In this document: positions 3,068 through 29,302 of the stretch, one piece after another
Numbering within the stretch: the stretch's first letter is position 1
Layout of the letters: each line of letters starts with the position of its first letter
Assembly (NCBI RefSeq): GCF_016903815.1
Contig: NZ_CP069973.1
DNA: 64,000 nucleotides
Direction: 5' to 3' (one strand)
Source: Escherichia coli
GTDB lineage: Bacteria > Pseudomonadota > Gammaproteobacteria > Enterobacterales > Enterobacteriaceae
Position numbers and translations under genes: made by a program
Notes under the pieces: model-generated
What the model saw: only the letters and a program-made list of their open reading frames with translations
Told to the model about the DNA's origin: nothing
Databases searched by the model: none

Positions 3068-3960
3068 CCGATTTACACACCGATGTAGAACGCTACCTAC
3101 GTTATCTGAGCGTGGAGCGCCAGCTAAGCCCGATAACCCTGCTTAACTACCAGCGTCAGCTTGAGGCGATCATCAATTTTGCCAGCGAAAACGGCCTGCA
3201 AAGCTGGCAGCAATGTGATGTGACGATGGTGCGCAATTTCGCTGTACGCAGTCGCCGTAAAGGGCTGGGAGCTGCAAGTCTGGCGTTACGGCTTTCTGCG
3301 CTACGTAGCTTTTTTGACTGGCTGGTCAGCCAGAACGAACTCAAAGCTAACCCGGCGAAAGGTGTTTCGGCACCGAAAGCGCCGCGTCATCTGCCGAAAA
3401 ACATCGACGTCGACGATATGAATCGGCTGCTGGATATTGATATCAACGATCCCCTCGCCGTGCGCGATCGGGCAATGCTGGAAGTGATGTACGGCGCGGG
3501 TCTGCGTCTTTCCGAACTGGTGGGGCTCGATATCAAACACCTCGACCTGGAGTCTGGTGAAGTGTGGGTGATGGGGAAAGGCAGCAAAGAGCGCCGCCTG
3601 CCGATTGGTCGCAACGCTGTGGCGTGGATTGAGCACTGGCTTGATTTGCGCGACCTGTTTGGTAGCGAAGACGACGCGCTTTTTCTGTCGAAACTGGGCA
3701 AGCGTATCTCCGCGCGTAATGTGCAGAAACGCTTTGCCGAATGGGGCATAAAACAAGGGCTGAATAATCACGTTCACCCGCATAAATTACGTCACTCGTT
3801 CGCTACGCATATGCTGGAGTCGAGCGGCGATCTTCGTGGTGTGCAGGAGCTGCTGGGTCATGCCAACCTCTCCACCACGCAAATCTATACTCATCTTGAT
3901 TTTCAACACCTTGCCTCGGTGTACGATGCGGCGCATCCACGCGCCAAACGGGGGAAATAA
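3064..3960 (+). CDS. xerC: site-specific tyrosine recombinase XerC
   Basis: 298 aa; C-terminal catalytic region [12 protein letters not shown]...[15 protein letters not shown] typical of tyrosine recombinases. Confidence 0.95.
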
Positions 3961-4676
3961 TGCGTTTTTACCGGCCTTTGGGGCGCATCTCGGCGCTCAC
4001 CTTTGACCTGGATGATACCCTTTACGATAACCGTCCGGTGATTTTGCGCACCGAGCGAGAGGCGCTTACCTTTGTGCAAAATTATCATCCGGCGCTGCGC
4101 AGCTTCCAGAATGAAGATCTGCAACGCCTGCGCCAGGCGGTACGGGAAGCGGAACCCGAGATTTATCACGACGTGACGCGCTGGCGTTTTCGTTCGATTG
4201 AACAAGCCATGCTCGACGCCGGGCTGAGTGCCGAAGAAGCCAGTGCAGGCGCACACGCGGCAATGATCAACTTTGCCAAATGGCGCAGCCGAATCGATGT
4301 CCCGCAGCAAACCCACGACACCTTAAAACAGCTGGCGAAGAAATGGCCGCTGGTGGCGATCACCAACGGTAACGCCCAGCCGGAACTGTTTGGTTTGGGG
4401 GATTATTTTGAGTTTGTGCTGCGCGCTGGCCCGCACGGGCGCTCAAAACCGTTCAGCGATATGTACTTTCTGGCTGCGGAAAAACTCAACGTGCCGATCG
4501 GCGAGATCTTACATGTTGGGGACGATCTCACCACTGACGTGGGTGGGGCAATTCGCAGCGGAATGCAGGCTTGTTGGATCAGACCGGAAAATGGCGATCT
4601 GATGCAAACCTGGGACAGCCGTTTACTCCCGCATCTGGAAATTTCCCGGTTGGCATCTCTGACCTCGCTGATATAA
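3960..4676 (+). CDS. yigB: HAD-family phosphatase YigB
   Basis: 238 aa; HAD motif I (FDLDDTLYD) near N-terminus; conserved position. Confidence 0.85.
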
Positions 4677-4683
4677 TCAGCAA

Positions 4684-4703
4684 ATCTGTATATATACCCA
4701 GCT
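4684..4703 (+). promoter_or_regulatory. LexA (SOS) box in the uvrD promoter
   Basis: atCTGTatatataccCAGct fits the CTGT-N8-ACAG consensus, ~60 bp upstream of the uvrD ATG. Confidence 0.75.
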
Positions 4704-4759
4704 TTTTGGCGGAGGGCGTTGCGCTTCTCCGCCCAACCTATTTTTACGCGGCGGTGCCA

Positions 4760-6922
4760 ATGGACGTTTCTTACCTGCTCGACAGCCTTAATGACAAACA
4801 GCGCGAAGCGGTGGCCGCGCCACGCAGCAACCTTCTGGTGCTGGCGGGCGCGGGCAGTGGTAAGACGCGCGTACTGGTGCACCGTATCGCCTGGCTGATG
4901 AGCGTGGAAAACTGCTCGCCATATTCGATTATGGCGGTAACGTTTACCAACAAAGCGGCGGCGGAGATGCGTCATCGTATCGGGCAGCTGATGGGCACCA
5001 GCCAGGGCGGCATGTGGGTCGGCACCTTCCACGGGCTGGCGCACCGTCTGCTGCGTGCGCACCATATGGACGCCAATCTGCCGCAGGATTTTCAGATCCT
5101 CGACAGCGAGGACCAGCTACGCCTGCTCAAACGCCTAATCAAGGCGATGAACCTCGACGAGAAGCAGTGGCCGCCGCGCCAGGCAATGTGGTACATCAAC
5201 AGCCAGAAAGATGAAGGCCTGCGTCCACATCATATTCAAAGCTACGGTAATCCGGTGGAGCAGACCTGGCAGAAGGTGTATCAGGCGTATCAGGAAGCGT
5301 GTGACCGCGCGGGCCTGGTGGACTTCGCCGAGCTGCTGCTACGTGCTCACGAGTTGTGGCTTAACAAGCCGCATATCCTTCAGCACTATCGCGAACGGTT
5401 TACCAATATCCTGGTGGACGAATTCCAGGATACCAACAACATTCAGTATGCGTGGATCCGCCTGCTGGCGGGCGATACCGGCAAAGTGATGATCGTTGGC
5501 GATGACGATCAGTCAATCTACGGCTGGCGTGGAGCGCAGGTGGAGAATATTCAGCGTTTCCTCAATGATTTCCCCGGTGCTGAAACTATCCGTCTGGAGC
5601 AGAACTACCGCTCTACCAGCAATATTCTGAGCGCCGCGAACGCCCTGATTGAAAACAACAACGGGCGTTTGGGTAAAAAACTGTGGACCGATGGCGCGGA
5701 TGGTGAGCCTATTTCCCTCTATTGCGCTTTTAACGAACTCGATGAAGCGCGTTTTGTGGTTAACCGTATCAAAACCTGGCAGGACAACGGCGGGGCGCTT
5801 GCCGAGTGCGCCATTCTCTACCGCAGCAACGCCCAGTCGCGTGTGCTGGAAGAAGCACTGTTACAGGCAAGTATGCCGTACCGTATTTACGGCGGGATGC
5901 GATTCTTCGAACGCCAGGAAATCAAAGATGCGCTCTCGTATCTGCGCCTGATTGCCAACCGTAATGACGACGCGGCCTTTGAGCGCGTGGTGAATACACC
6001 AACGCGGGGTATTGGTGACCGGACGCTGGACGTGGTACGTCAGACATCGCGCGATCGCCAGTTAACACTCTGGCAGGCATGTCGTGAACTGTTGCAGGAA
6101 AAAGCCCTCGCCGGACGTGCTGCCAGTGCCTTACAGCGGTTTATGGAACTGATCGACGCCTTAGCGCAGGAAACTGCCGATATGCCGCTGCATGTACAGA
6201 CTGACCGGGTAATTAAAGACTCCGGCCTGCGCACAATGTACGAGCAGGAGAAAGGCGAAAAAGGCCAGACGCGTATCGAAAACTTAGAGGAACTGGTGAC
6301 GGCGACGCGCCAGTTCAGCTACAACGAAGAAGACGAAGATTTAATGCCGCTGCAGGCGTTCCTCTCCCATGCGGCACTGGAAGCGGGCGAGGGGCAGGCG
6401 GATACCTGGCAGGATGCGGTGCAGTTGATGACGCTACACTCGGCGAAAGGTCTGGAGTTCCCGCAGGTGTTTATCGTCGGTATGGAAGAGGGCATGTTCC
6501 CAAGCCAGATGTCGCTGGATGAAGGTGGGCGTCTGGAAGAAGAACGCCGTCTGGCCTACGTTGGCGTAACCCGCGCGATGCAGAAACTGACGCTGACCTA
6601 CGCGGAAACCCGCCGTCTGTATGGCAAAGAAGTTTACCATCGCCCGTCGCGCTTTATCGGCGAGCTGCCGGAAGAGTGTGTGGAAGAGGTGCGCCTGCGC
6701 GCCACGGTAAGCCGCCCGGTCAGCCATCAACGGATGGGTACGCCGATGGTCGAGAACGACAGCGGCTACAAGCTCGGCCAGCGCGTACGCCACGCTAAGT
6801 TTGGTGAAGGCACCATTGTCAATATGGAAGGCAGCGGTGAGCATAGCCGTTTGCAGGTGGCGTTCCAGGGCCAGGGTATTAAATGGCTGGTGGCGGCTTA
6901 TGCCCGGTTGGAGACGGTGTGA
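4760..6922 (+). CDS. uvrD: DNA helicase II (UvrD)
   Basis: 720 aa from ATG at 4760 (MDVSYLLDSLNDKQREAV...); Walker A GAGSGKTRV; the track ORF at 4571 is an upstream in-frame extension. Confidence 0.95.
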   Translation: MDVSYLLDSLNDKQREAVAAPRSNLLVLAGAGSGKTRVLVHRIAWLMSVENCSPYSIMAVTFTNKAAAEMRHRIGQLMGTSQGGMWVGTFHGLAHRLLRAHHMDANLPQDFQILDSEDQLRLLKRLIKAMNLDEKQWPPRQAMWYINSQKDEGLRPHHIQSYGNPVEQTWQKVYQAYQEACDRAGLVDFAELLLRAHELWLNKPHILQHYRERFTNILVDEFQDTNNIQYAWIRLLAGDTGKVMIVGDDDQSIYGWRGAQVENIQRFLNDFPGAETIRLEQNYRSTSNILSAANALIENNNGRLGKKLWTDGADGEPISLYCAFNELDEARFVVNRIKTWQDNGGALAECAILYRSNAQSRVLEEALLQASMPYRIYGGMRFFERQEIKDALSYLRLIANRNDDAAFERVVNTPTRGIGDRTLDVVRQTSRDRQLTLWQACRELLQEKALAGRAASALQRFMELIDALAQETADMPLHVQTDRVIKDSGLRTMYEQEKGEKGQTRIENLEELVTATRQFSYNEEDEDLMPLQAFLSHAALEAGEGQADTWQDAVQLMTLHSAKGLEFPQVFIVGMEEGMFPSQMSLDEGGRLEEERRLAYVGVTRAMQKLTLTYAETRRLYGKEVYHRPSRFIGELPEECVEEVRLRATVSRPVSHQRMGTPMVENDSGYKLGQRVRHAKFGEGTIVNMEGSGEHSRLQVAFQGQGIKWLVAAYARLETV

Positions 6923-6966: not shown

Positions 6967-7869
6967 TTACTTAGCGCACTTCTTCACATCAATATTCCAG
7001 TCAGCACCAGACGCAACCTGATGTTTCTGCGCAAAATTATCCATATTCAGCGCCACGGAAACATTCAATAAGCTGTTCAGATACACCATCGGCTGGCCTT
7101 CCGGCACATCGCCGAAGCTTGCGACATACGGCATTTTCCCTGCGTATTTTTGCTGGGAACCTTCGGAAATGGTCACACACAACGTGTCGTTGAGTTTGAT
7201 TCCTGCCTGATTCAGCAACTCGTCGCTGATATTGCTCCAGACGTTGCCGTACTGAATATCGAGAATCGGGATATTGCCCTTCACTTCACCTTTTGTTGCT
7301 TTTGCTTTCTGATAAGAAAGTTCGACAACTTTTGCAGGAAGCTCTGGCCCCACCTGTTCGAACGTAATCGCTCCGGAAGCCAGACGCGCACCAGTGTAGG
7401 CATATACATCGCGACCATGGAAGGTATATGACTTTTCAGAACCTTTCAGGCGGTTAGCTTTTTCGTCGATTTCCCGGACGCTATCAATACCCAGAGTTTG
7501 TGCCACCAAAGTGAGCGTACCGTTATCTGGTGAAACGAAGTATTGACCGTTTTTGGTTTTCAGCACTACCGATTTACGGTCAGTGCCTACGCCCGGATCG
7601 ACCACGCTAACAAACACCGAACCTTGCGGCCAGTAACTGGCAGTCTGATACAGGCGATAAGCGCCTTCCCAGATGTTATACGGTGGAATTTCGTGTGTTA
7701 AATCAAAGATTTTAAGATTATGGTCAACGCCGAATGCGACCCCTTTCATCGCCGAGACGGCACCATCTTTCAGGCTAAAATCAGTTTGTAAAATCAAAGC
7801 GTTATCCGCATAGGCGGATGATGATCCCAGACACGTTAATAAAAATAACGTTGCGAGCGTTTTTTTCAT
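6967..7869 (-). CDS. secreted SAM hydroxide adenosyltransferase-like protein (DUF62 family)
   Basis: 300 aa; N-terminal signal peptide MKKTLATLFLLTCLGSSSAYA; motifs LQTDFSLKDGAVSAMKGV and FHGRDVYAYTGARLASG resemble the DUF62 fold; family call is from memory of motifs. Confidence 0.6.
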   Translation of the reverse strand: MKKTLATLFLLTCLGSSSAYADNALILQTDFSLKDGAVSAMKGVAFGVDHNLKIFDLTHEIPPYNIWEGAYRLYQTASYWPQGSVFVSVVDPGVGTDRKSVVLKTKNGQYFVSPDNGTLTLVAQTLGIDSVREIDEKANRLKGSEKSYTFHGRDVYAYTGARLASGAITFEQVGPELPAKVVELSYQKAKATKGEVKGNIPILDIQYGNVWSNISDELLNQAGIKLNDTLCVTISEGSQQKYAGKMPYVASFGDVPEGQPMVYLNSLLNVSVALNMDNFAQKHQVASGADWNIDVKKCAK

Positions 7870-10076: not shown

Positions 10077-10568
10077 CTAAAAATTGTCTTTTTTAAAGTC
10101 ATGCGGATTGAAAACTCGCTCTATTTTATTTTCTTGTGTTAATTGATACTCAGTAAAATCGTTAATACCAATATGAGTGTTACGATAAGGGTATTCATTA
10201 ATAACCATTAAGTAATTTTTCACGATGCAATTATCATTGCTCTTAATTGTCGGGAAACAGTAGAGATCTTCATACGGCCCTTCGATATATTTTTTATAGT
10301 CAGTGAAGCCATTACCGATATCAATGACATACCAGGTATGCCAACTACCTTCTGGTAGGGGATGTTGATTTTTAATTTCATTCTGATGCTTCAGATACCA
10401 ATTTATTTTATCGCTGTCAGTCCATGGCAGATGATCAACGACCAGAAAGACTGAATTGCCAGCATCAGAGTATGTATACAAAATCTGTACAGGACGCAAT
10501 GTCCATAAATTATAGATGCAGCATAGAAGAAATAAACATAATATAATTTTCTGGAGTTTACTTTTCAT
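10077..10568 (-). CDS. hypothetical exported or membrane-anchored protein; candidate immunity partner of the upstream gene
   Basis: 163 aa; N-terminal hydrophobic segment (KIILCLFLLCCIYNLW); start overlaps the upstream stop (ATGA); very AT-rich; no family recognised. Confidence 0.55.
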   Translation of the reverse strand: MKSKLQKIILCLFLLCCIYNLWTLRPVQILYTYSDAGNSVFLVVDHLPWTDSDKINWYLKHQNEIKNQHPLPEGSWHTWYVIDIGNGFTDYKKYIEGPYEDLYCFPTIKSNDNCIVKNYLMVINEYPYRNTHIGINDFTEYQLTQENKIERVFNPHDFKKDNF

Positions 10569-11413
10569 AGATAATTTTCGATTCTTTCGATAGTGTTAAA
10601 ATTGGTGAAAAAAGGTTTGAAAGCAAAGTCTTTATGCCGTTGTAAAAAGAACCATATGCGAAAAAATCTATATTTGCTGTAAGTCTTGTTTTTTATATCA
10701 GTTACATCCAAACCAAAGTGGTCTTGTGCTATGAAATGAATGGTAGCGCTCCAGCCCATAGGATATTTTTGAAAATTTAAAAGAGAGATTTTTTGAGCTG
10801 AGATATCATGAATGCTGATTCCCAGGCCATTAAAATTATCTTTAAAATCATTGAATTTATTTAGTCTTGATGAAAGTAATTCGATCTTAATCTTTTGTAG
10901 GAGAAGAGGCCGGTATCCTATCGTAGGTGTTGAAGAAATATCATTTTCGATACATTCTTTGATTACACGTATTGGGCTATTATAATCATATTTGTTTATT
11001 CGTTCATGAAAAGATAAGTTCAATTCCTGGCTATGGAAACTGTTGCCATTTCCATATCTAAAATGATCAATCAGATCCTGGATGAGTGTTTTGTATTGTC
11101 CAAAAAAGGAAAACATTTTTGCCAGATCTTTCATTTCTGCAAATAAAATATCAATACATTCACTTTGTGATATTTTTGTTCCGGAAGTTGGAACACTAAA
11201 AGCACCATAAGTAGAATTCGGCCCAGGAAAATGGTATTTAATGAGGCGGTAAGGATCAACTTTTGCAGAGATGTCGCTTAAGCCGAGTGAGAGAAAATCT
11301 TGTTCTTCCATATCCCCATATTGCATATCATCAGCAGAAAAATCATCGAATAAAGTAATAGTTTCGAAAAGTGTACAGGGCATATTAATTGATGAGCCTA
11401 ATATGTTGTTCAT
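10565..11413 (-). CDS. hypothetical 282-aa soluble protein; candidate orphan effector/toxin
   Basis: Long ORF in a strongly AT-rich block between corA and rarD; no signal peptide; translationally coupled to the downstream 163-aa gene; family not recognised. Confidence 0.55.
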   Translation of the reverse strand: MNNILGSSINMPCTLFETITLFDDFSADDMQYGDMEEQDFLSLGLSDISAKVDPYRLIKYHFPGPNSTYGAFSVPTSGTKISQSECIDILFAEMKDLAKMFSFFGQYKTLIQDLIDHFRYGNGNSFHSQELNLSFHERINKYDYNSPIRVIKECIENDISSTPTIGYRPLLLQKIKIELLSSRLNKFNDFKDNFNGLGISIHDISAQKISLLNFQKYPMGWSATIHFIAQDHFGLDVTDIKNKTYSKYRFFRIWFFLQRHKDFAFKPFFTNFNTIERIENYL

Positions 11414-20411: not shown

Positions 20412-21252
20412 ACGCTTCAGTAATCGGCTGACGCTGCTCGCCATCGCGCACGGCGGCGTACAGTCGGCTCCACAAGCCTTCGCCCAGGGTTTTGGTCACC
20501 ACCAGACCCTGGCGCTCAAAACTCTCTACTACCCAATGCGGCAGGGCGGCAATACCCATCCGCGCGGCAACCATCTGAATCAACAATAAGGTGTTATCGA
20601 CGCTTTTCAGTGACGGGCTGACGCCTGCCGGCTGAAGAAAATGCCGCCAGACATCCAGTCGGCTACGCTGCACCGGATAAATCAACAGCGTCTCGCTGGC
20701 GAGATCTTCCGGTGTAATACGCGTTTTTGCCGCCAGCGGATGGTCAGGTGCCAACACCAGACGCACTTCATAATCGAACATCGGCGAATAATGCAGGCCA
20801 CTGCGCGGCAGAATATCTGACGTCATCACCAGATCCAGCTCGCCCTGTTGCAACGCAGGCTGCGGGTCAAACGTCACGCCCGATTTAAAGTCCATCTCGA
20901 CCTGCGGCCAGTTCTTATGGAAATTTTCTAACGCGGGCGTCAGCCACTGAATACAGCTATGGCACTCAATGGCGATGCGCAGACGCGTCTGCTGCGGTTC
21001 ATTGCAGGCTTGCAGTGCCTGGCTAATTTGTGGCAGCACCTGGTTTGCCAGTTGCAACAGGATTTCTCCCTGCGGTGTAAAGCGAAGCGGCTGGCTCTTA
21101 CGCACAAATAGCCGGAAGCCAAGGCGTTGTTCCAGATCGCTAAACTGGTGAGACAGGGCGGATTGCGTCTGATGCAACGTCGCCGCAGCGGCTGCGAGCG
21201 AGCCGCAGTTCCGCAACGCTTGTAGCGTTTTCAGATGTTTTACTTCGATCAT
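20299..21252 (-). CDS. metR: LysR-type transcriptional regulator MetR
   Basis: 317 aa with N-terminal HTH; divergent from metE. Confidence 0.9.
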
Positions 21253-21369
21253 GAAAGTCCTTCACTTCGGCATGAATAATTTGCGCTTGAGGAATATACA
21301 GTAACCGCCAATTATGGATGTGTAAACATCTGGACGGCTAAATACTAAAAATTCCATAAGGGGCATATA

Positions 21370-23631
21370 ATGACAATTCTTAATCACACCCTCGGTTTCC
21401 CTCGCGTTGGCCTGCGTCGCGAGCTGAAAAAAGCGCAAGAGAGTTATTGGGCGGGGAACTCCACGCGTGAAGAACTGCTGGCGGTAGGGCGTGAATTGCG
21501 TGCTCGTCACTGGGATCAACAAAAGCAAGCGGGTATCGACCTGCTGCCGGTGGGCGATTTTGCCTGGTACGATCATGTACTGACCACCAGTCTGCTGCTG
21601 GGTAACGTTCCGGCGCGTCATCAGAACAAAGATGGTTCGGTAGATATCGACACCCTGTTCCGTATTGGTCGTGGACGTGCGCCGACTGGCGAACCTGCGG
21701 CGGCAGCGGAAATGACCAAATGGTTTAATACCAACTATCACTACATGGTGCCGGAATTCGTTAAAGGCCAACAGTTCAAACTGACCTGGACGCAGCTGCT
21801 GGACGAAGTGGACGAGGCGCTGGCGCTGGGCCACAAGGTGAAACCTGTGCTGCTGGGGCCGGTTACCTACCTGTGGCTGGGTAAAGTGAAAGGTGAACAG
21901 TTTGATCGCCTGAGCCTGCTGAACGACATTCTTCCGATTTATCAGCAAGTGCTGGCAGAACTGGCAAAACGCGGCATTGAGTGGGTACAGATTGATGAAC
22001 CCGCGCTGGTACTGGAACTGCCGCAGGCGTGGCTGGACACATACAAACCCGCTTACGACGCGCTCCAGGGACAGGTGAAACTGCTGCTGACCACCTATTT
22101 TGAAGGCGTAACGCCAAATCTCGACACGATTACTGCGCTGCCTGTTCAGGGTCTGCATGTCGATCTTGTACATGGTAAAGATGACGTTGCTGAACTGCAC
22201 AAGCGTCTGCCTTCTGACTGGCTGCTGTCTGCGGGTCTGATCAATGGTCGTAACGTCTGGCGCGCCGATCTTACCGAGAAGTATGCGCAAATTAAGGACA
22301 TTGTCGGCAAACGCGATTTGTGGGTGGCATCTTCCTGCTCACTGCTGCACAGCCCCATCGACCTGAGCGTGGAAACGCGTCTTGATGCAGAAGTGAAAAG
22401 CTGGTTTGCCTTCGCCCTGCAAAAATGTCATGAACTGGCACTGCTGCGCGATGCGCTGAACAGTGGTGACACGGCTGCTCTGGCAGAGTGGAGCGCTCCG
22501 ATTCAGGCGCGTCGTCACTCTACTCGTGTTCATAATCCGGCAGTAGAAAAGCGTCTGGCGGCGATCACCGCCCAGGACAGTCAGCGTGCGAATGTCTATG
22601 AAGTGCGTGCTGAAGCCCAGCGTGCGCGTTTTAAACTGCCCGCGTGGCCGACCACCACGATTGGTTCCTTCCCGCAAACCACGGAGATTCGTACCCTGCG
22701 TCTGGATTTTAAAAAGGGTAATCTCGACGCCAATAACTACCGCACGGGCATTGCGGAACATATCAAGCAGGCCATTGTTGAGCAGGAACGTTTGGGACTG
22801 GATGTGCTGGTACATGGCGAGGCTGAGCGTAATGACATGGTGGAATACTTTGGCGAGCACCTCGACGGTTTTGTCTTTACGCAAAACGGTTGGGTACAGA
22901 GCTACGGTTCACGCTGCGTGAAGCCACCGATTGTTATTGGTGACGTTAGCCGCCCGGCACCGATTACCGTTGAGTGGGCGAAGTATGCGCAATCCCTGAC
23001 TGATAAACCGGTGAAAGGGATGTTGACCGGCCCGGTGACTATTCTCTGCTGGTCGTTCCCGCGTGAAGATGTCAGCCGTGAAACCATCGCCAAACAAATT
23101 GCGCTGGCGCTGCGTGATGAAGTGGCGGACCTGGAAGCCGCTGGAATTGGCATCATCCAGATTGATGAACCGGCACTGCGCGAAGGTTTACCGCTGCGTC
23201 GCGGCGACTGGGATGCCTATCTCCAGTGGGGCGTGGAGGCTTTCCGTATCAACGCCGCCGTGGCGAAAGATGACACACAAATCCACACTCACATGTGTTA
23301 CTGCGAGTTCAACGACATCATGGATTCGATTGCGGCGCTGGACGCAGACGTCATCACCATCGAAACCTCGCGTTCCGACATGGAGTTGCTGGAGTCGTTT
23401 GAAGAGTTTGATTATCCAAATGAAATCGGTCCTGGCGTCTATGACATTCACTCGCCAAACGTACCGAGCGTAGAATGGATTGAAGCCTTGCTGAAGAAAG
23501 CGGCAAAACGCATTCCGGCAGAGCGTCTGTGGGTCAACCCGGACTGTGGCCTGAAAACGCGCGGCTGGCCAGAAACCCGCGCGGCACTGGCGAACATGGT
23601 GCAGGCGGCGCAGAATTTGCGTCGGGGATGA
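21370..23631 (+). CDS. metE: cobalamin-independent methionine synthase
   Basis: 753 aa [22 protein letters not shown]...; matches remembered MetE. Confidence 0.95.
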
Positions 23632-23799: not shown

Positions 23800-24060
23800 T
23801 TATTTATTCTCACGTTGCACGAGATTGTATCCCTTTTCACTAACGTGGTAGTGAGGCATAGACTTATTCCCGCTATCCTCAATAATAACCAAACCTTCGT
23901 TAGCTAATTTGTTAACAATGTTAACAACATTCCCGAATCCTGGAATTTGCCTTATGGATAGTGTGCGATCGAGATTCATCCAGTTCCAGTTTATATCTTT
24001 CTCAGTCATAACGTTCAGCACGTTAAGTTCATTTTTAGTGATCACGATATTCTGTACCAA
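23800..24060 (-). CDS. small winged-helix-like protein, paralogue 2; candidate immunity protein
   Basis: 86 aa; roughly 55-60% identical by eye to the neighbouring 85-aa ORF (shared IPGFGNV..NIV.KL...GLV core); AT-rich island. Confidence 0.55.
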   Translation of the reverse strand: MVQNIVITKNELNVLNVMTEKDINWNWMNLDRTLSIRQIPGFGNVVNIVNKLANEGLVIIEDSGNKSMPHYHVSEKGYNLVQRENK

Positions 24061-24119
24061 AATTGATGAGTATCTTATTGAAAGATCACAATGTAAATCA
24101 TGCTCCTGTAATGGCTGGA

Positions 24120-24377
24120 TCAGAAGAGGTTGTCTTGTTGTTCTTTGATAAGATTCAATCCATATTGAGAAACTCTGTAGCGTGGTCTAGAGTTGCCCTC
24201 ACCATTTACGATATCAACCAACCCATGATTAACCAGCTTTGTTACGATATTCGCTACGTTGCCAAATCCTGGAATATTTCGTATAGCTAAAGTACGATCC
24301 AGCACCATCCAGCTCCAGTCAATATCTTTCTCAGCCATAACTTTCAGCACGTTAAATTCAACTATCGTAATCGTCAT
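24120..24377 (-). CDS. small winged-helix-like protein, paralogue 1; candidate cognate immunity protein
   Basis: 85 aa; start overlaps the stop of the Hcp-extension gene (ATGA), implying translational coupling. Confidence 0.55.
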   Translation of the reverse strand: MTITIVEFNVLKVMAEKDIDWSWMVLDRTLAIRNIPGFGNVANIVTKLVNHGLVDIVNGEGNSRPRYRVSQYGLNLIKEQQDNLF

Positions 24378-25507
24378 TTTGTTGCATCCGGATGAAATAA
24401 GTCAGTATCTTTAATTTTAAAGTCTTCTAGAGTTGCAGTATGTACATTATTCCATAATTCATATCCATCTAAACCTTTCGGTTCACCTGTTTCCCATCCT
24501 AAATTACAATAACGCTGATACTCGCGACATTCATGAGTATAGTAGTTCAGATCGTATTTTTCAGGAAGCAATTCTTTATTTGCTATTTTCTTTAGCCTTG
24601 AAATCATTACATCATTAGCTGGATCATGATCAAATCTGGAGATATGCTTTTCAACAATAGCGATACCTTCCCTGTTGATTGTTACGCCATCTATCGTCAG
24701 GTTTTCAATTGGACCACCGGCAAGGTCGGGATTAAATGGTCTTCCTGATACTGCTCCTCTGGCTCCGAAATGCTCAAGTGATTCCAAATCAGGGAATCTC
24801 ATTCTTCCCAGAACAACTCCAGCAACTATTGAAGCACCAGCGATGAGTAACCCTTTGTTATCCATAACTTGATCGTAACCAGCAGGTGCATCTCCTCCCA
24901 ACTTGTTTGCTGTTTCCCTGAATCCTTCGATATTCCCATTGTATATGCCGCCAGCAGCAAGCAGTCTGCCAACCGCTTTACTATTGAGTGTTTTGAGGCC
25001 ATTATCATCTTTAGTTTTTGGCCGTGGTATAAACAGACGGTTGTAGTTATCGGGAAATGCCAAATAACTAAATTCAGTATTAGCAATCAGATGCCTGGAG
25101 AGTATATATTCATAACTGACAGTGATGGTTTCTGTATCCAGATTGTTCTCAGTAAACAGGTGATTGATTGCTGATAAGAGCGCGCCGCGAAGTTGAATGT
25201 TGTAATATTTCTCCCATCGACCAAATCTATTGATCCGATAGAAGTCAAACTCCATGAACAACTGCTCGTTATTGTTAATAGCGTTAATAAGTAACGGGGA
25301 GCTTTTGTCAATCAATTTACAGAAACTAAGGCCATGCAATTGTGACCCTTTGCCTGTATTCGTAATACTATTAGAGAGCGAGAACGCGAAGATTTCATCT
25401 TCATGGCCAATCTGCCAGCGATTACCTATTGATGCGCTCGTTCCACAACGAGAGGAAATACATCCTTGTTGTTCTCCGGTTATGTTCAGGTAAATAATAT
25501 CACTCAT
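24374..25507 (-). CDS. Hcp (T6SS tube protein) fused to a C-terminal extension: candidate 'extended Hcp' toxin
   Basis: 377 aa; N-terminal ~150 aa aligns by eye to Hcp (IYLNITGEQQG ~ IKGESKD; FCKLIDKSSPLL ~ FTKYIDKSTPNL; FYRIN ~ WYKIN); ~220-aa extension with a Gly/Ala-rich hydrophobic stretch and an unassigned C-terminal domain. Confidence 0.75.
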   Translation of the reverse strand: MSDIIYLNITGEQQGCISSRCGTSASIGNRWQIGHEDEIFAFSLSNSITNTGKGSQLHGLSFCKLIDKSSPLLINAINNNEQLFMEFDFYRINRFGRWEKYYNIQLRGALLSAINHLFTENNLDTETITVSYEYILSRHLIANTEFSYLAFPDNYNRLFIPRPKTKDDNGLKTLNSKAVGRLLAAGGIYNGNIEGFRETANKLGGDAPAGYDQVMDNKGLLIAGASIVAGVVLGRMRFPDLESLEHFGARGAVSGRPFNPDLAGGPIENLTIDGVTINREGIAIVEKHISRFDHDPANDVMISRLKKIANKELLPEKYDLNYYTHECREYQRYCNLGWETGEPKGLDGYELWNNVHTATLEDFKIKDTDLFHPDATK

Positions 25508-27734: not shown

Positions 27735-27874
27735 TCCTCTTCTCCTGTCTGAAGGCCGACGCGTTCGGCCTTTTGTATTTTTGCGTAGCGCCTCGCAGGA
27801 AATGCCTTTCCAACTGGACGTTTGTACAGCACAATTCTATTTTGTGCGGGTAAGTTGTTGCGTCAGGAGGCGTT

Positions 27875-29302
27875 GTGGATTTCTCAATCATGGTTTACGC
27901 AGTTATTGCGTTGGTGGGTGTGGCAATTGGCTGGCTGTTTGCCAGTTATCAACATGCGCAGCAAAAAGCCGAGCAATTAGCTGAACGTGAAGAGATGGTC
28001 GCGGAGTTAAGCGCGGCAAAACAACAAATTACCCAAAGCGAGCACTGGCGCGCTGAGTGCGAGTTACTCAATAACGAAGTGCGCAGCCTGCAAAGTATTA
28101 ACACCTCTCTGGAGGCCGATCTGCGTGAAGTAACCACGCGGATGGAAGCCGCACAGCAACATGCTGACGATAAAATTCGCCAGATGATTAACAGCGAGCA
28201 GCGCCTCAGTGAGCAGTTTGAAAACCTCGCCAACCGTATTTTTGAGCACAGCAATCGCCGGGTTGATGAGCAAAACCGTCAGAGTCTGAACAGCCTGTTG
28301 TCGCCGCTGCGTGAACAACTGGATGGTTTTCGCCGACAGGTACAGGACAGCTTTGGTAAAGAAGCACAAGAACGCCATACCCTGACCCACGAAATTCGTA
28401 ATCTACAACAACTCAACGCGCAAATGGCCCAGGAAGCGATCAACCTGACCCGCGCGCTGAAAGGCGATAACAAAACCCAGGGGAACTGGGGCGAAGTGGT
28501 ACTGACGCGGGTGCTGGAGGCTTCCGGACTGCGTGAAGGGTATGAATACGAAACCCAGGTCAGCATCGAAAATGACGCCCGCTCGCGGATGCAGCCGGAT
28601 GTCATCGTGCGGCTACCGCAGGGGAAAGATGTGGTGATCGATGCCAAAATGACGCTGGTCGCCTATGAACGCTACTTCAACGCGGAAGACGACTACACAC
28701 GCGAAAGCGCATTGCAGGAGCATATTGCTTCGGTACGTAATCACATCCGCTTGCTTGGGCGCAAAGACTATCAACAGCTGCCGGGGCTACGAACGCTGGA
28801 TTACGTGCTGATGTTTATCCCTGTGGAACCCGCTTTTTTACTGGCGCTTGATCGCCAGCCGGAGCTGATCACCGAAGCATTAAAGAACAACATAATGCTG
28901 GTTAGCCCCACCACGCTGCTGGTGGCGTTGCGTACTATCGCCAACCTTTGGCGTTATGAGCATCAAAGCCGTAACGCCCAGCAAATCGCCGATCGCGCCA
29001 GCAAGCTGTACGACAAGATGCGTTTGTTCGTCGATGACATGTCAGCGATTGGTCAAAGTCTCGACAAAGCGCAGGATAACTATCGCCAGGCAATGAAAAA
29101 ACTCTCTTCAGGTCGCGGAAATGTGCTGGCGCAGGCAGAAGCGTTTCGCGGTTTAGGGGTAGAAATTAAACGCGAGATTAATCCGGATTTGGCTGAACAA
29201 GCGGTGAGCCAGGATGAAGAGTATCGACTGCGGTCGGTTCCGGAGCAGCCGAATGATGAAGCTTATCAACGCGATGATGAATATAATCAGCAGTCGCGCT
29301 AG
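27875..29302 (+). CDS. rmuC: DNA recombination protein RmuC
   Basis: 475 aa; N-terminal TM segment, long coiled-coil, C-terminal RmuC domain. Confidence 0.9.
   Translation: MDFSIMVYAVIALVGVAIGWLFASYQHAQQKAEQLAEREEMVAELSAAKQQITQSEHWRAECELLNNEVRSLQSINTSLEADLREVTTRMEAAQQHADDKIRQMINSEQRLSEQFENLANRIFEHSNRRVDEQNRQSLNSLLSPLREQLDGFRRQVQDSFGKEAQERHTLTHEIRNLQQLNAQMAQEAINLTRALKGDNKTQGNWGEVVLTRVLEASGLREGYEYETQVSIENDARSRMQPDVIVRLPQGKDVVIDAKMTLVAYERYFNAEDDYTRESALQEHIASVRNHIRLLGRKDYQQLPGLRTLDYVLMFIPVEPAFLLALDRQPELITEALKNNIMLVSPTTLLVALRTIANLWRYEHQSRNAQQIADRASKLYDKMRLFVDDMSAIGQSLDKAQDNYRQAMKKLSSGRGNVLAQAEAFRGLGVEIKREINPDLAEQAVSQDEEYRLRSVPEQPNDEAYQRDDEYNQQSR

What the first reader, a model, noticed from the sequence alone, without database searches (positions are those of the whole stretch)
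4684..4703. SOS box upstream of uvrD
A CTGT-N8-CAG palindrome lies between a -10-like TATAAT (4672-4677) and the uvrD start, consistent with LexA control of uvrD.
Basis: partly seen in the sequence, partly recalled or inferred. Interest (0 to 1): 0.2.

Follow-up and report, generated by a model that had tools for sequence, protein, structure and literature searches.

The report
Known LexA operator of E. coli uvrD

Summary
The window is E. coli chromosome, with 3 mismatches in 50 kb to strain 7/2. ATCTGTATATATACCCAGCT sits at 4684-4703, exactly as reported. It lies 6 nt downstream of a near-consensus sigma-70 promoter (TTGGCA-16-TGaTATAAT, 4650-4677) and 56 nt upstream of the uvrD ATG (4760).

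The loose pattern CTGT-N9-CAG is no rarer than chance: 5 found, 6.2 expected. A leave-one-out LexA weight matrix built from 17 published E. coli sites, without uvrD, decides the matter:
- The site scores 18.3 bits. That is the best of about 128,000 positions in the window and falls within the range of real operators (17.0-30.5).
- About 0.04 such hits are expected per window.
- The second-best hit is the known rmuC SOS box, which validates the matrix.

Conservation agrees. The 60-mer around the box is identical in 5374 of 5425 complete E. coli genomes. Of 117 gammaproteobacterial uvrD upstream regions, 96 carry a site of at least 12 bits, against 0.3-2% of controls.

The same sequence is printed as the uvrD LexA motif in PMC3009722, and lexA control of uvrD dates from 1983.

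Verdict: observation confirmed apart from an off-by-one in the spacer, interpretation supported, already known, low interest.

The parts
3960..4676 (+). yigB coding sequence. Its 3' end contains the uvrD promoter, and its stop codon TAA (4674-4676) lies inside the -10 hexamer.
   Evidence: ORF list; RefSeq annotation of a strain that differs at 3 of 50,000 positions.
4650..4655 (+). Predicted -35 hexamer TTGGCA of the uvrD promoter.
   Evidence: Promoter scan: 11 of 12 consensus matches with a 16-nt spacer; 1 site found against 0.3 expected. Conserved across Enterobacterales.
4669..4677 (+). Extended -10 element TGaTATAAT (TATAAT at 4672-4677).
   Evidence: TGATATAAT is almost invariant in 12 Enterobacterales.
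4684..4703 (.). LexA operator (SOS box) ATCTGTATATATACCCAGCT. CTG is at 4686-4688 and CAG at 4699-4701. It is predicted to cover about +1 to +20 of the transcript.
   Evidence: Leave-one-out PWM score 18.3 bits, rank 1 in the window. Sequence printed as the uvrD LexA motif in PMC3009722. Conserved in E. coli and across Gammaproteobacteria.
4708..4733 (+). G+C-rich hairpin in the uvrD leader (GGCGGAGGGCG/CGC-UCUCCGCC). It is the candidate attenuator, and possibly also the terminator of the upstream yigB transcript.
   Evidence: RNA fold. 95.5% of cells are paired in 6 Escherichia/Citrobacter sequences, with one compensatory pair, but the covariation is not significant. The title of Easton & Kushner 1983 names attenuation. 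Not found by the strict terminator scan.
4741..4745 (+). T-run (TTTTT) 8 nt downstream of the hairpin.
   Evidence: Read from the sequence. It is too far from the stem for the canonical terminator rule.
4760..6922 (+). uvrD coding sequence (DNA helicase II, 720 aa), the regulated gene.
   Evidence: Translation starts MDVSYLLDSLNDKQREAVAAP and is 720 aa long. RefSeq annotation WP_000383407.1.

Best explanation
The sequence at 4684-4703 is the LexA operator of the E. coli uvrD promoter. In undamaged cells a LexA dimer binds the CTG-N10-CAG site. The site starts 6 nt after the -10 hexamer and so covers the predicted transcription start and early transcribed region. Bound LexA is inferred to hinder RNA polymerase by steric occlusion. 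After DNA damage, RecA filaments on single-stranded DNA trigger LexA self-cleavage, LexA leaves the operator, and uvrD transcription rises. The operator departs from consensus (AT instead of TA at the left flank, CCAG instead of ACAG, GCT instead of GTA at the right flank), so it is of weak to medium strength. Repression is therefore leaky, induction is modest and early, and a basal supply of helicase II remains for mismatch repair and nucleotide excision repair. A hairpin in the 76-nt leader adds a second level of control, attenuation, according to Easton & Kushner 1983. Shown here: the sequence, its PWM score, its position next to the promoter, and its conservation. Taken from the literature: LexA dependence and damage induction. 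Inferred: the exact transcription start and the occlusion mechanism.
For: The sequence and coordinates are confirmed. The adjoining promoter matches 11 of 12 consensus positions and has an extended TG. The leave-one-out PWM gives 18.3 bits, the best of about 128,000 positions and within the training range of 17.0-30.5; about 0.04 such hits are expected per window; the leave-one-out HI is 7.8. The second-best hit of the same matrix (27812-27831) lies 44 nt upstream of rmuC, another listed SOS gene, which shows that the matrix finds real operators. The 60-mer 4664-4723 is identical in 5374 of 5425 E. coli genomes, whereas only 1562 of 5425 are at least 99% identical over the 601-nt region. In 117 gammaproteobacterial species, 96 have a site of at least 12 bits and 86 a site of at least 15 bits within 300 nt upstream of uvrD. 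The controls give 4 of 482 coding windows, 8 of 2340 shuffles and 3 of 158 other ORF-free gaps. By group the counts are Enterobacterales 32/33 and Vibrionales 29/30. In the Enterobacterales alignment CTGTAT...CCAG stays fixed while the leader next to it diverges. From the literature: the identical sequence is listed as the uvrD LexA motif upstream of UV-induced genes (PMC3009722). The uvrD box has HI 8.5, with 2.1- and 1.7-fold entries in that paper's table of LexA-regulated genes (PMC11228462). uvrD promoter activity peaks early, at 35-38 min, at all UV doses (PMC5999292). Salmonella uvrD is induced 13.9-fold by nalidixic acid and has one box (PMC8072944). [quoted passage not shown]
Against: None of this is direct for this particular strain; no binding or expression assay can be run here. 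The loose CTGT-N9-CAG pattern alone is no rarer than chance. The operator is among the weaker ones, near the bottom of the training range. In Salmonella, basal uvrD heterogeneity was independent of LexA under non-inducing conditions (PMC8072944), so repression is incomplete. The primary 1983 papers are not held in the library, so I rely on their titles and on secondary citations. The transcription start is predicted, not mapped, here.
Confidence: 0.97

Rival explanations
1. The sequence is a chance LexA-like match. It is simply AT-rich promoter-proximal DNA that LexA does not bind in vivo.
For: The loose pattern occurs at the chance rate. At the iid rate about 3 sites of at least 18.3 bits are expected by chance in a whole E. 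coli genome. The site is weak for an operator.
Against: It is the best hit in the window and lies exactly at the promoter of a repair gene. It is conserved in 96 of 117 species, against at most 2% of controls, even where the surrounding leader has diverged and the distance to the ATG differs. Damage induction and lexA control are published.
Confidence: 0.01
2. The conserved block is a core-promoter feature, such as the initial transcribed sequence or an overlapping second -10-like TATATA, conserved for RNA polymerase rather than for LexA.
For: The (TA)n core at 4689-4696 resembles -10 hexamers, and the block sits at the predicted start site.
Against: The conserved bases include the G/C trinucleotides CTG and CAG at the exact 10-nt spacing, which a -10-like element would not require. 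The spacing between TATAAT and the box varies from 0 to about 11 nt among Enterobacterales. In Vibrionales, Pasteurellales and Alteromonadales the box lies at quite different distances from the ATG, with medians of 9, 13 and 59 nt. A fixed promoter element does not fit that pattern; a transcription-factor site does.
Confidence: 0.01
3. LexA binds here, but the main damage-responsive control of uvrD is the leader attenuator or read-through from the upstream dapF-yigA-xerC-yigB transcript. The box would then contribute little.
For: The leader holds a stable hairpin and a T-run. The 1983 paper's title names attenuation. Fold induction in E. coli is small, 1.7 to 2.1. Basal heterogeneity in Salmonella is independent of LexA.
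Against: The hairpin has no significant covariation support in 6 sequences, and the leader is not conserved outside Escherichia/Citrobacter, whereas the box is. This rival modifies the best explanation rather than replacing it.
Confidence: 0.01

Closest known systems
E. coli K-12 uvrD SOS box (LexA operator of uvrDp)
   Same: The sequence is identical: AAATCTGTATATATACCCAGCTTTT is printed as the uvrD motif in PMC3009722 Tables 4 and 7. The yigB-uvrD gene context is the same. The 60-mer is identical in 99% of complete E. coli genomes.
   Different: Nothing at the site. The window comes from a non-K-12 strain; it is closest to strain 7/2, with 3 mismatches in 50 kb.
Strong E. coli LexA operators (sulA, umuDC, recN, sbmC; consensus TACTG(TA)5CAGTA)
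   Same: The CTG-N10-CAG frame, the TA-rich spacer and the promoter-overlapping position are shared.
   Different: The uvrD site is weaker: 18.3 bits against 27-30.5 for the best sites. Its HI is 5.7 on the 18-site matrix, 7.8 leave-one-out and 8.5 as published, against 0.3-2 on the 18-site matrix for the best sites. This fits early, modest induction.
Salmonella enterica uvrD LexA box
   Same: It is the orthologous gene, with a single box, and is damage-inducible (13.9-fold with nalidixic acid) (PMC8072944 Table 1).
   Different: The Salmonella box is reported 105 bp from the ATG with HI 11.48, against a 56-nt gap (box start 76 nt from the ATG) and HI about 8 here. The leader length therefore differs, as it does in Phytobacter.
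rmuC (yigN) SOS box, in the same window at 27812-27831
   Same: It is a LexA-type site of similar weak to medium strength (14.4 bits) lying 44 nt upstream of the ATG of a DNA-metabolism gene.
   Different: It controls a different gene, and its spacer is less TA-rich (GGACGTTTGTA).

Membership tests
Gammaproteobacterial LexA operator (SOS box) | The invariant trinucleotides CTG and CAG separated by 10 bases | tested here: met
   CTG is at 4686-4688 and CAG at 4699-4701. The rule CTG-N10-CAG is stated in PMC11228462.
Gammaproteobacterial LexA operator (SOS box) | A match of the whole 20-mer to the TACTG(TA)5CAGTA profile at the level of proven operators (PWM score or heterology index) | tested here: met
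   The leave-one-out PWM gives 18.3 bits against 17.0-30.5 for the 17 training sites, and the site ranks first in the window. HI is 7.8 leave-one-out and 5.7 on the 18-site matrix. The published HI is 8.5.
Gammaproteobacterial LexA operator (SOS box) | A position overlapping or adjoining the promoter of the regulated gene | tested here: met
   The box starts 6 nt after the TATAAT of an 11-of-12 extended -10 promoter. The transcription start itself is predicted, not mapped.
Gammaproteobacterial LexA operator (SOS box) | Conservation of the site upstream of orthologous genes | tested here: met
   96 of 117 species have a site of at least 12 bits, against 0.3-2% of controls. The site is near-invariant within E. 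coli.
Gammaproteobacterial LexA operator (SOS box) | Physical binding of LexA protein to the site | not testable with these tools
   This rests on the literature only: Easton & Kushner 1983, cited. The paper itself is not held.
Gammaproteobacterial LexA operator (SOS box) | RecA/LexA-dependent induction of the downstream gene by DNA damage | not testable with these tools
   Literature: UV-induced uvrD promoter activity, UV tiling arrays, an AZT RNA-seq table, and Salmonella with nalidixic acid.
Intrinsic terminator / attenuator (leader hairpin 4708-4733) | A G+C-rich stem-loop immediately followed by a U-run | tested here: inconclusive
   The hairpin is predicted, but the T-run begins 8 nt after the stem and the strict scan does not call it. 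The z-score of the whole leader is 0.5. One compensatory pair is seen, and the covariation is not significant with 6 sequences.

The most novel reading that the evidence does not exclude
The box itself holds nothing new. The most novel reading not excluded concerns the neighbouring leader. The hairpin at 4708-4733 may be a regulated attenuator whose signal is still undefined. It may also double as the terminator of the upstream dapF-yigA-xerC-yigB transcript, so that LexA bound at +1 to +20 also acts as a roadblock to read-through from yigB. A different hairpin occupies the same place in Phytobacter, which hints at selection for structure rather than for sequence.
Probability: 0.05. Interest if true: 0.3.

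Novelty: already known. Interest (0 to 1): 0.05.

Why it matters
It matters mainly as a check on the scan. A reader without tools correctly recognised a real, weak to medium LexA operator from sequence alone, and the site serves as a positive control. Biologically it is textbook: LexA control of uvrD ties the supply of helicase II, which acts in nucleotide excision repair, mismatch repair and RecA filament removal, to the SOS response. The only modest addition here is a survey of 117 species. It shows that the uvrD box is kept in Enterobacterales, Vibrionales, most Alteromonadales and many Pasteurellales. In this sample it is missing from 7 of 8 Marinomonas and all 3 Shewanella.

Tried and rejected
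It was replaced by a leave-one-out PWM.
- The primary papers, Easton & Kushner 1983 (PMC326612) and Pang & Walker 1983 (PMC217635), are not held.
- The supplements of PMC5999292, which might list measured LexA off-rates for the uvrD operator, are not held.
- A literature search for ChIP evidence of LexA at uvrD returned nothing directly usable.
- Rfam found no family in 4400-5000 at E <= 1, so the leader is not a described RNA element.
- The covariation test of the leader hairpin was inconclusive: 6 sequences, and 92 of 500 shuffles did as well.
- The symmetrised PWM gave the same ranking with lower scores (15.5 bits). The asymmetric version is reported because the source motif was oriented.
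- Rejected: a chance match, and a pure core-promoter element. Both are set out under the rival explanations.

Full report
**What is there.** The 601 bases around the finding match the yigB-uvrD junction of E. coli at 100% identity, and the junction is present in 5425 of 5426 complete E. coli genomes. The first 50 kb of the window differ at 3 positions from strain 7/2 (NZ_CP023820.1), so that record's annotation can be read in window coordinates. yigB runs 3960-4676 and uvrD (DNA helicase II, 720 aa, MDVSYLLDSLNDKQREAVAAP...) runs 4760-6922, both on the + strand.

The 83-nt gap between them holds these features in order:
- a -35 hexamer TTGGCA at 4650-4655, inside yigB;
- a 16-nt spacer;
- an extended -10, TGaTATAAT, at 4669-4677, in which the yigB stop codon TAA is embedded;
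- the 20-mer ATCTGTATATATACCCAGCT at 4684-4703;
- a G+C-rich hairpin at 4708-4733;
- a T-run at 4741-4745;
- the ATG at 4760.

**Checking the observation.** The coordinates, the TATAAT and the identity of the gene are all correct. The only slip is the spacer. CTGT and CAG are 9 bases apart, so the site is CTGT-N8-CCAG, equivalent to CTG-N10-CAG: the canonical frame with one half-site mismatch. As a bare pattern this is not remarkable, since CTGT-N9-CAG occurs 5 times in the window against 6.2 expected.

**PWM test.** I built a weight matrix from the 17 LexA motifs, other than uvrD, that PMC3009722 lists upstream of UV-induced E. coli genes (Table 4). I scanned both strands of the window with it.
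- The uvrD site scores 18.3 bits and ranks first of 63,981 start positions. The training operators score 17.0-30.5.
- Under an iid background p is 3e-7 per position, about 0.04 expected per window.
- 7 of 300 first-order Markov 64-kb sequences reach this score.
- A Berg-von Hippel heterology index on the same counts gives 7.8 leave-one-out and 5.7 with uvrD included. This places the site among the weaker genuine operators and agrees with the value of 8.5 tabulated in PMC11228462.
- As an internal control, the second-best hit of the matrix (27812-27831, 14.4 bits) lies 44 nt upstream of rmuC/yigN. rmuC is listed as an SOS gene, and the Salmonella yigN box is also reported 44 bp from the ATG.

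**Conservation within the species.** The 60-mer 4664-4723, which spans the -10, the box and the start of the leader, is identical in 5374 of 5425 genomes. Only 1562 of 5425 are at least 99% identical over the surrounding 601 nt.

**Conservation between species.** One scan of representative genomes, using a degenerate pattern for the UvrD peptide LNDKQREAVAAP, returned 120 gammaproteobacterial loci. In 117 usable loci, the 300 nt upstream of uvrD hold a site of at least 12 bits in 96 cases and of at least 15 bits in 86.

The controls at the 12-bit threshold are far lower:

| Control | Windows reaching 12 bits |
|---|---|
| Equal-sized coding windows | 4 of 482 |
| Shuffles of the proximal 150 nt | 8 of 2340 |
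| Other ORF-free gaps in the same loci | 3 of 158 |

By group the counts are as follows (genus-to-order assignment is from my own knowledge):

| Group | Loci with a site of at least 12 bits |
|---|---|
| Enterobacterales | 32 of 33 |
| Vibrionales | 29 of 30 |
| Other Alteromonadales | 22 of 26 |
| Pasteurellales | 12 of 17 |
| Marinomonas | 1 of 8 |
| Shewanella | 0 of 3 |

The distance from the box to the ATG differs between groups, with medians of 34.5, 9, 59 and 13 nt for the first four groups above. Among Enterobacterales the gap between TATAAT and the box varies from 0 to about 11 nt, while CTGTAT...CCAG stays fixed and the leader next to it diverges. This is how a transcription-factor site behaves, not a fixed core-promoter element.

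**Mechanism.** Established knowledge of the SOS system is summarised in PMC6590174 and PMC11228462. LexA dimers bind CTG-N10-CAG operators and repress. RecA filaments formed on single-stranded DNA after damage stimulate LexA self-cleavage, and the genes are derepressed.

Here the operator begins 6 nt after the -10. By inference it covers the transcription start and the first ~20 transcribed bases, so bound LexA should occlude RNA polymerase. That step is inferred, not shown. The departures from consensus make the operator weak to medium in strength. This fits several published observations:
- uvrD behaves as an 'early' SOS promoter whose peak time (35-38 min) does not shift with UV dose (PMC5999292).
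- uvrD shows only about 2-fold entries in the E. coli table of LexA-regulated genes.
- Salmonella uvrD has LexA-independent basal heterogeneity but is induced 13.9-fold by nalidixic acid (PMC8072944).

A second level of control, attenuation in the leader, is named in the title of Easton & Kushner 1983 (cited; the paper is not held). The hairpin at 4708-4733 is the obvious candidate. My own tests of it are inconclusive:
- The T-run is 8 nt from the stem, and the strict scan does not call a terminator.
- The leader as a whole does not fold better than shuffles (z = 0.5).
- Six Escherichia/Citrobacter sequences give one compensatory pair without statistical support.
- Rfam has no family there.

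**Comparison with what is known, and verdict.** The site is not merely like the K-12 uvrD SOS box; it is that box, base for base. Every defining feature of a LexA operator that can be tested in silico is met. The two that cannot be tested here, protein binding and lexA-dependent induction, are covered by the literature.

The finding is correct, already known and of low interest. It is useful only as a positive control for the scan, with a small descriptive addition on how widely the uvrD box is kept among Gammaproteobacteria.

Noticed in passing
window 27812-27831: This is the second-best LexA-PWM hit of the window: AACTGGACGTTTGTACAGCA, 14.4 bits. It lies 44 nt upstream of the rmuC (yigN) ATG at 27875. 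rmuC is a listed SOS gene, and the Salmonella yigN box is also 44 bp from the ATG, so this is the known rmuC SOS box.
   Followed up: partly
window 21284-21303: This is the third-best LexA-PWM hit, at 13.5 bits. Its reverse complement, TACTGTATATTCCTCAAGCG, has a perfect left half-site only. It sits in the divergent metR/metE intergenic region (metR ends at 21252, metE starts at 21370). It is probably a chance half-site; about 0.2-0.4 hits of at least 14.4 bits are expected per window.
   Followed up: no
window 4650-4677: The uvrD promoter lies inside the 3' end of yigB, and the yigB stop codon TAA (4674-4676) is embedded in the TATAAT hexamer. Conservation of the promoter is therefore confounded with coding constraint on yigB.
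   Followed up: partly
window 4708-4745; L084 2500-2560: The leader hairpin plus T-run could also terminate the dapF-yigA-xerC-yigB transcript. In Phytobacter massiliensis (L084) an unrelated, longer inverted repeat (GCTACGCG...CGCGTAGC) occupies the same position. This suggests selection for a structure rather than for a sequence.
   Followed up: partly
L022, L024, L054, L056, L062, L068, L072, L121 (Marinomonas); L037, L063, L100 (Shewanella): These uvrD upstream regions mostly lack any LexA-like site: 1 of 8 Marinomonas and 0 of 3 Shewanella have one. In the other groups sampled 71-97% do. This suggests lineage-specific loss of LexA control of uvrD, or a divergent arrangement.
   Followed up: no
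window 6967-7869, 10077-11413, 23800-25507: From my own memory these strain-variable genes are absent from K-12 at these places. They are a SAM hydrolase/halogenase-family gene just downstream of uvrD, a DUF943/YPO3983 pair between corA and rarD, and a tssD-like (type VI tube protein) gene with two small hypothetical genes between metE and ysgA.
   Followed up: no
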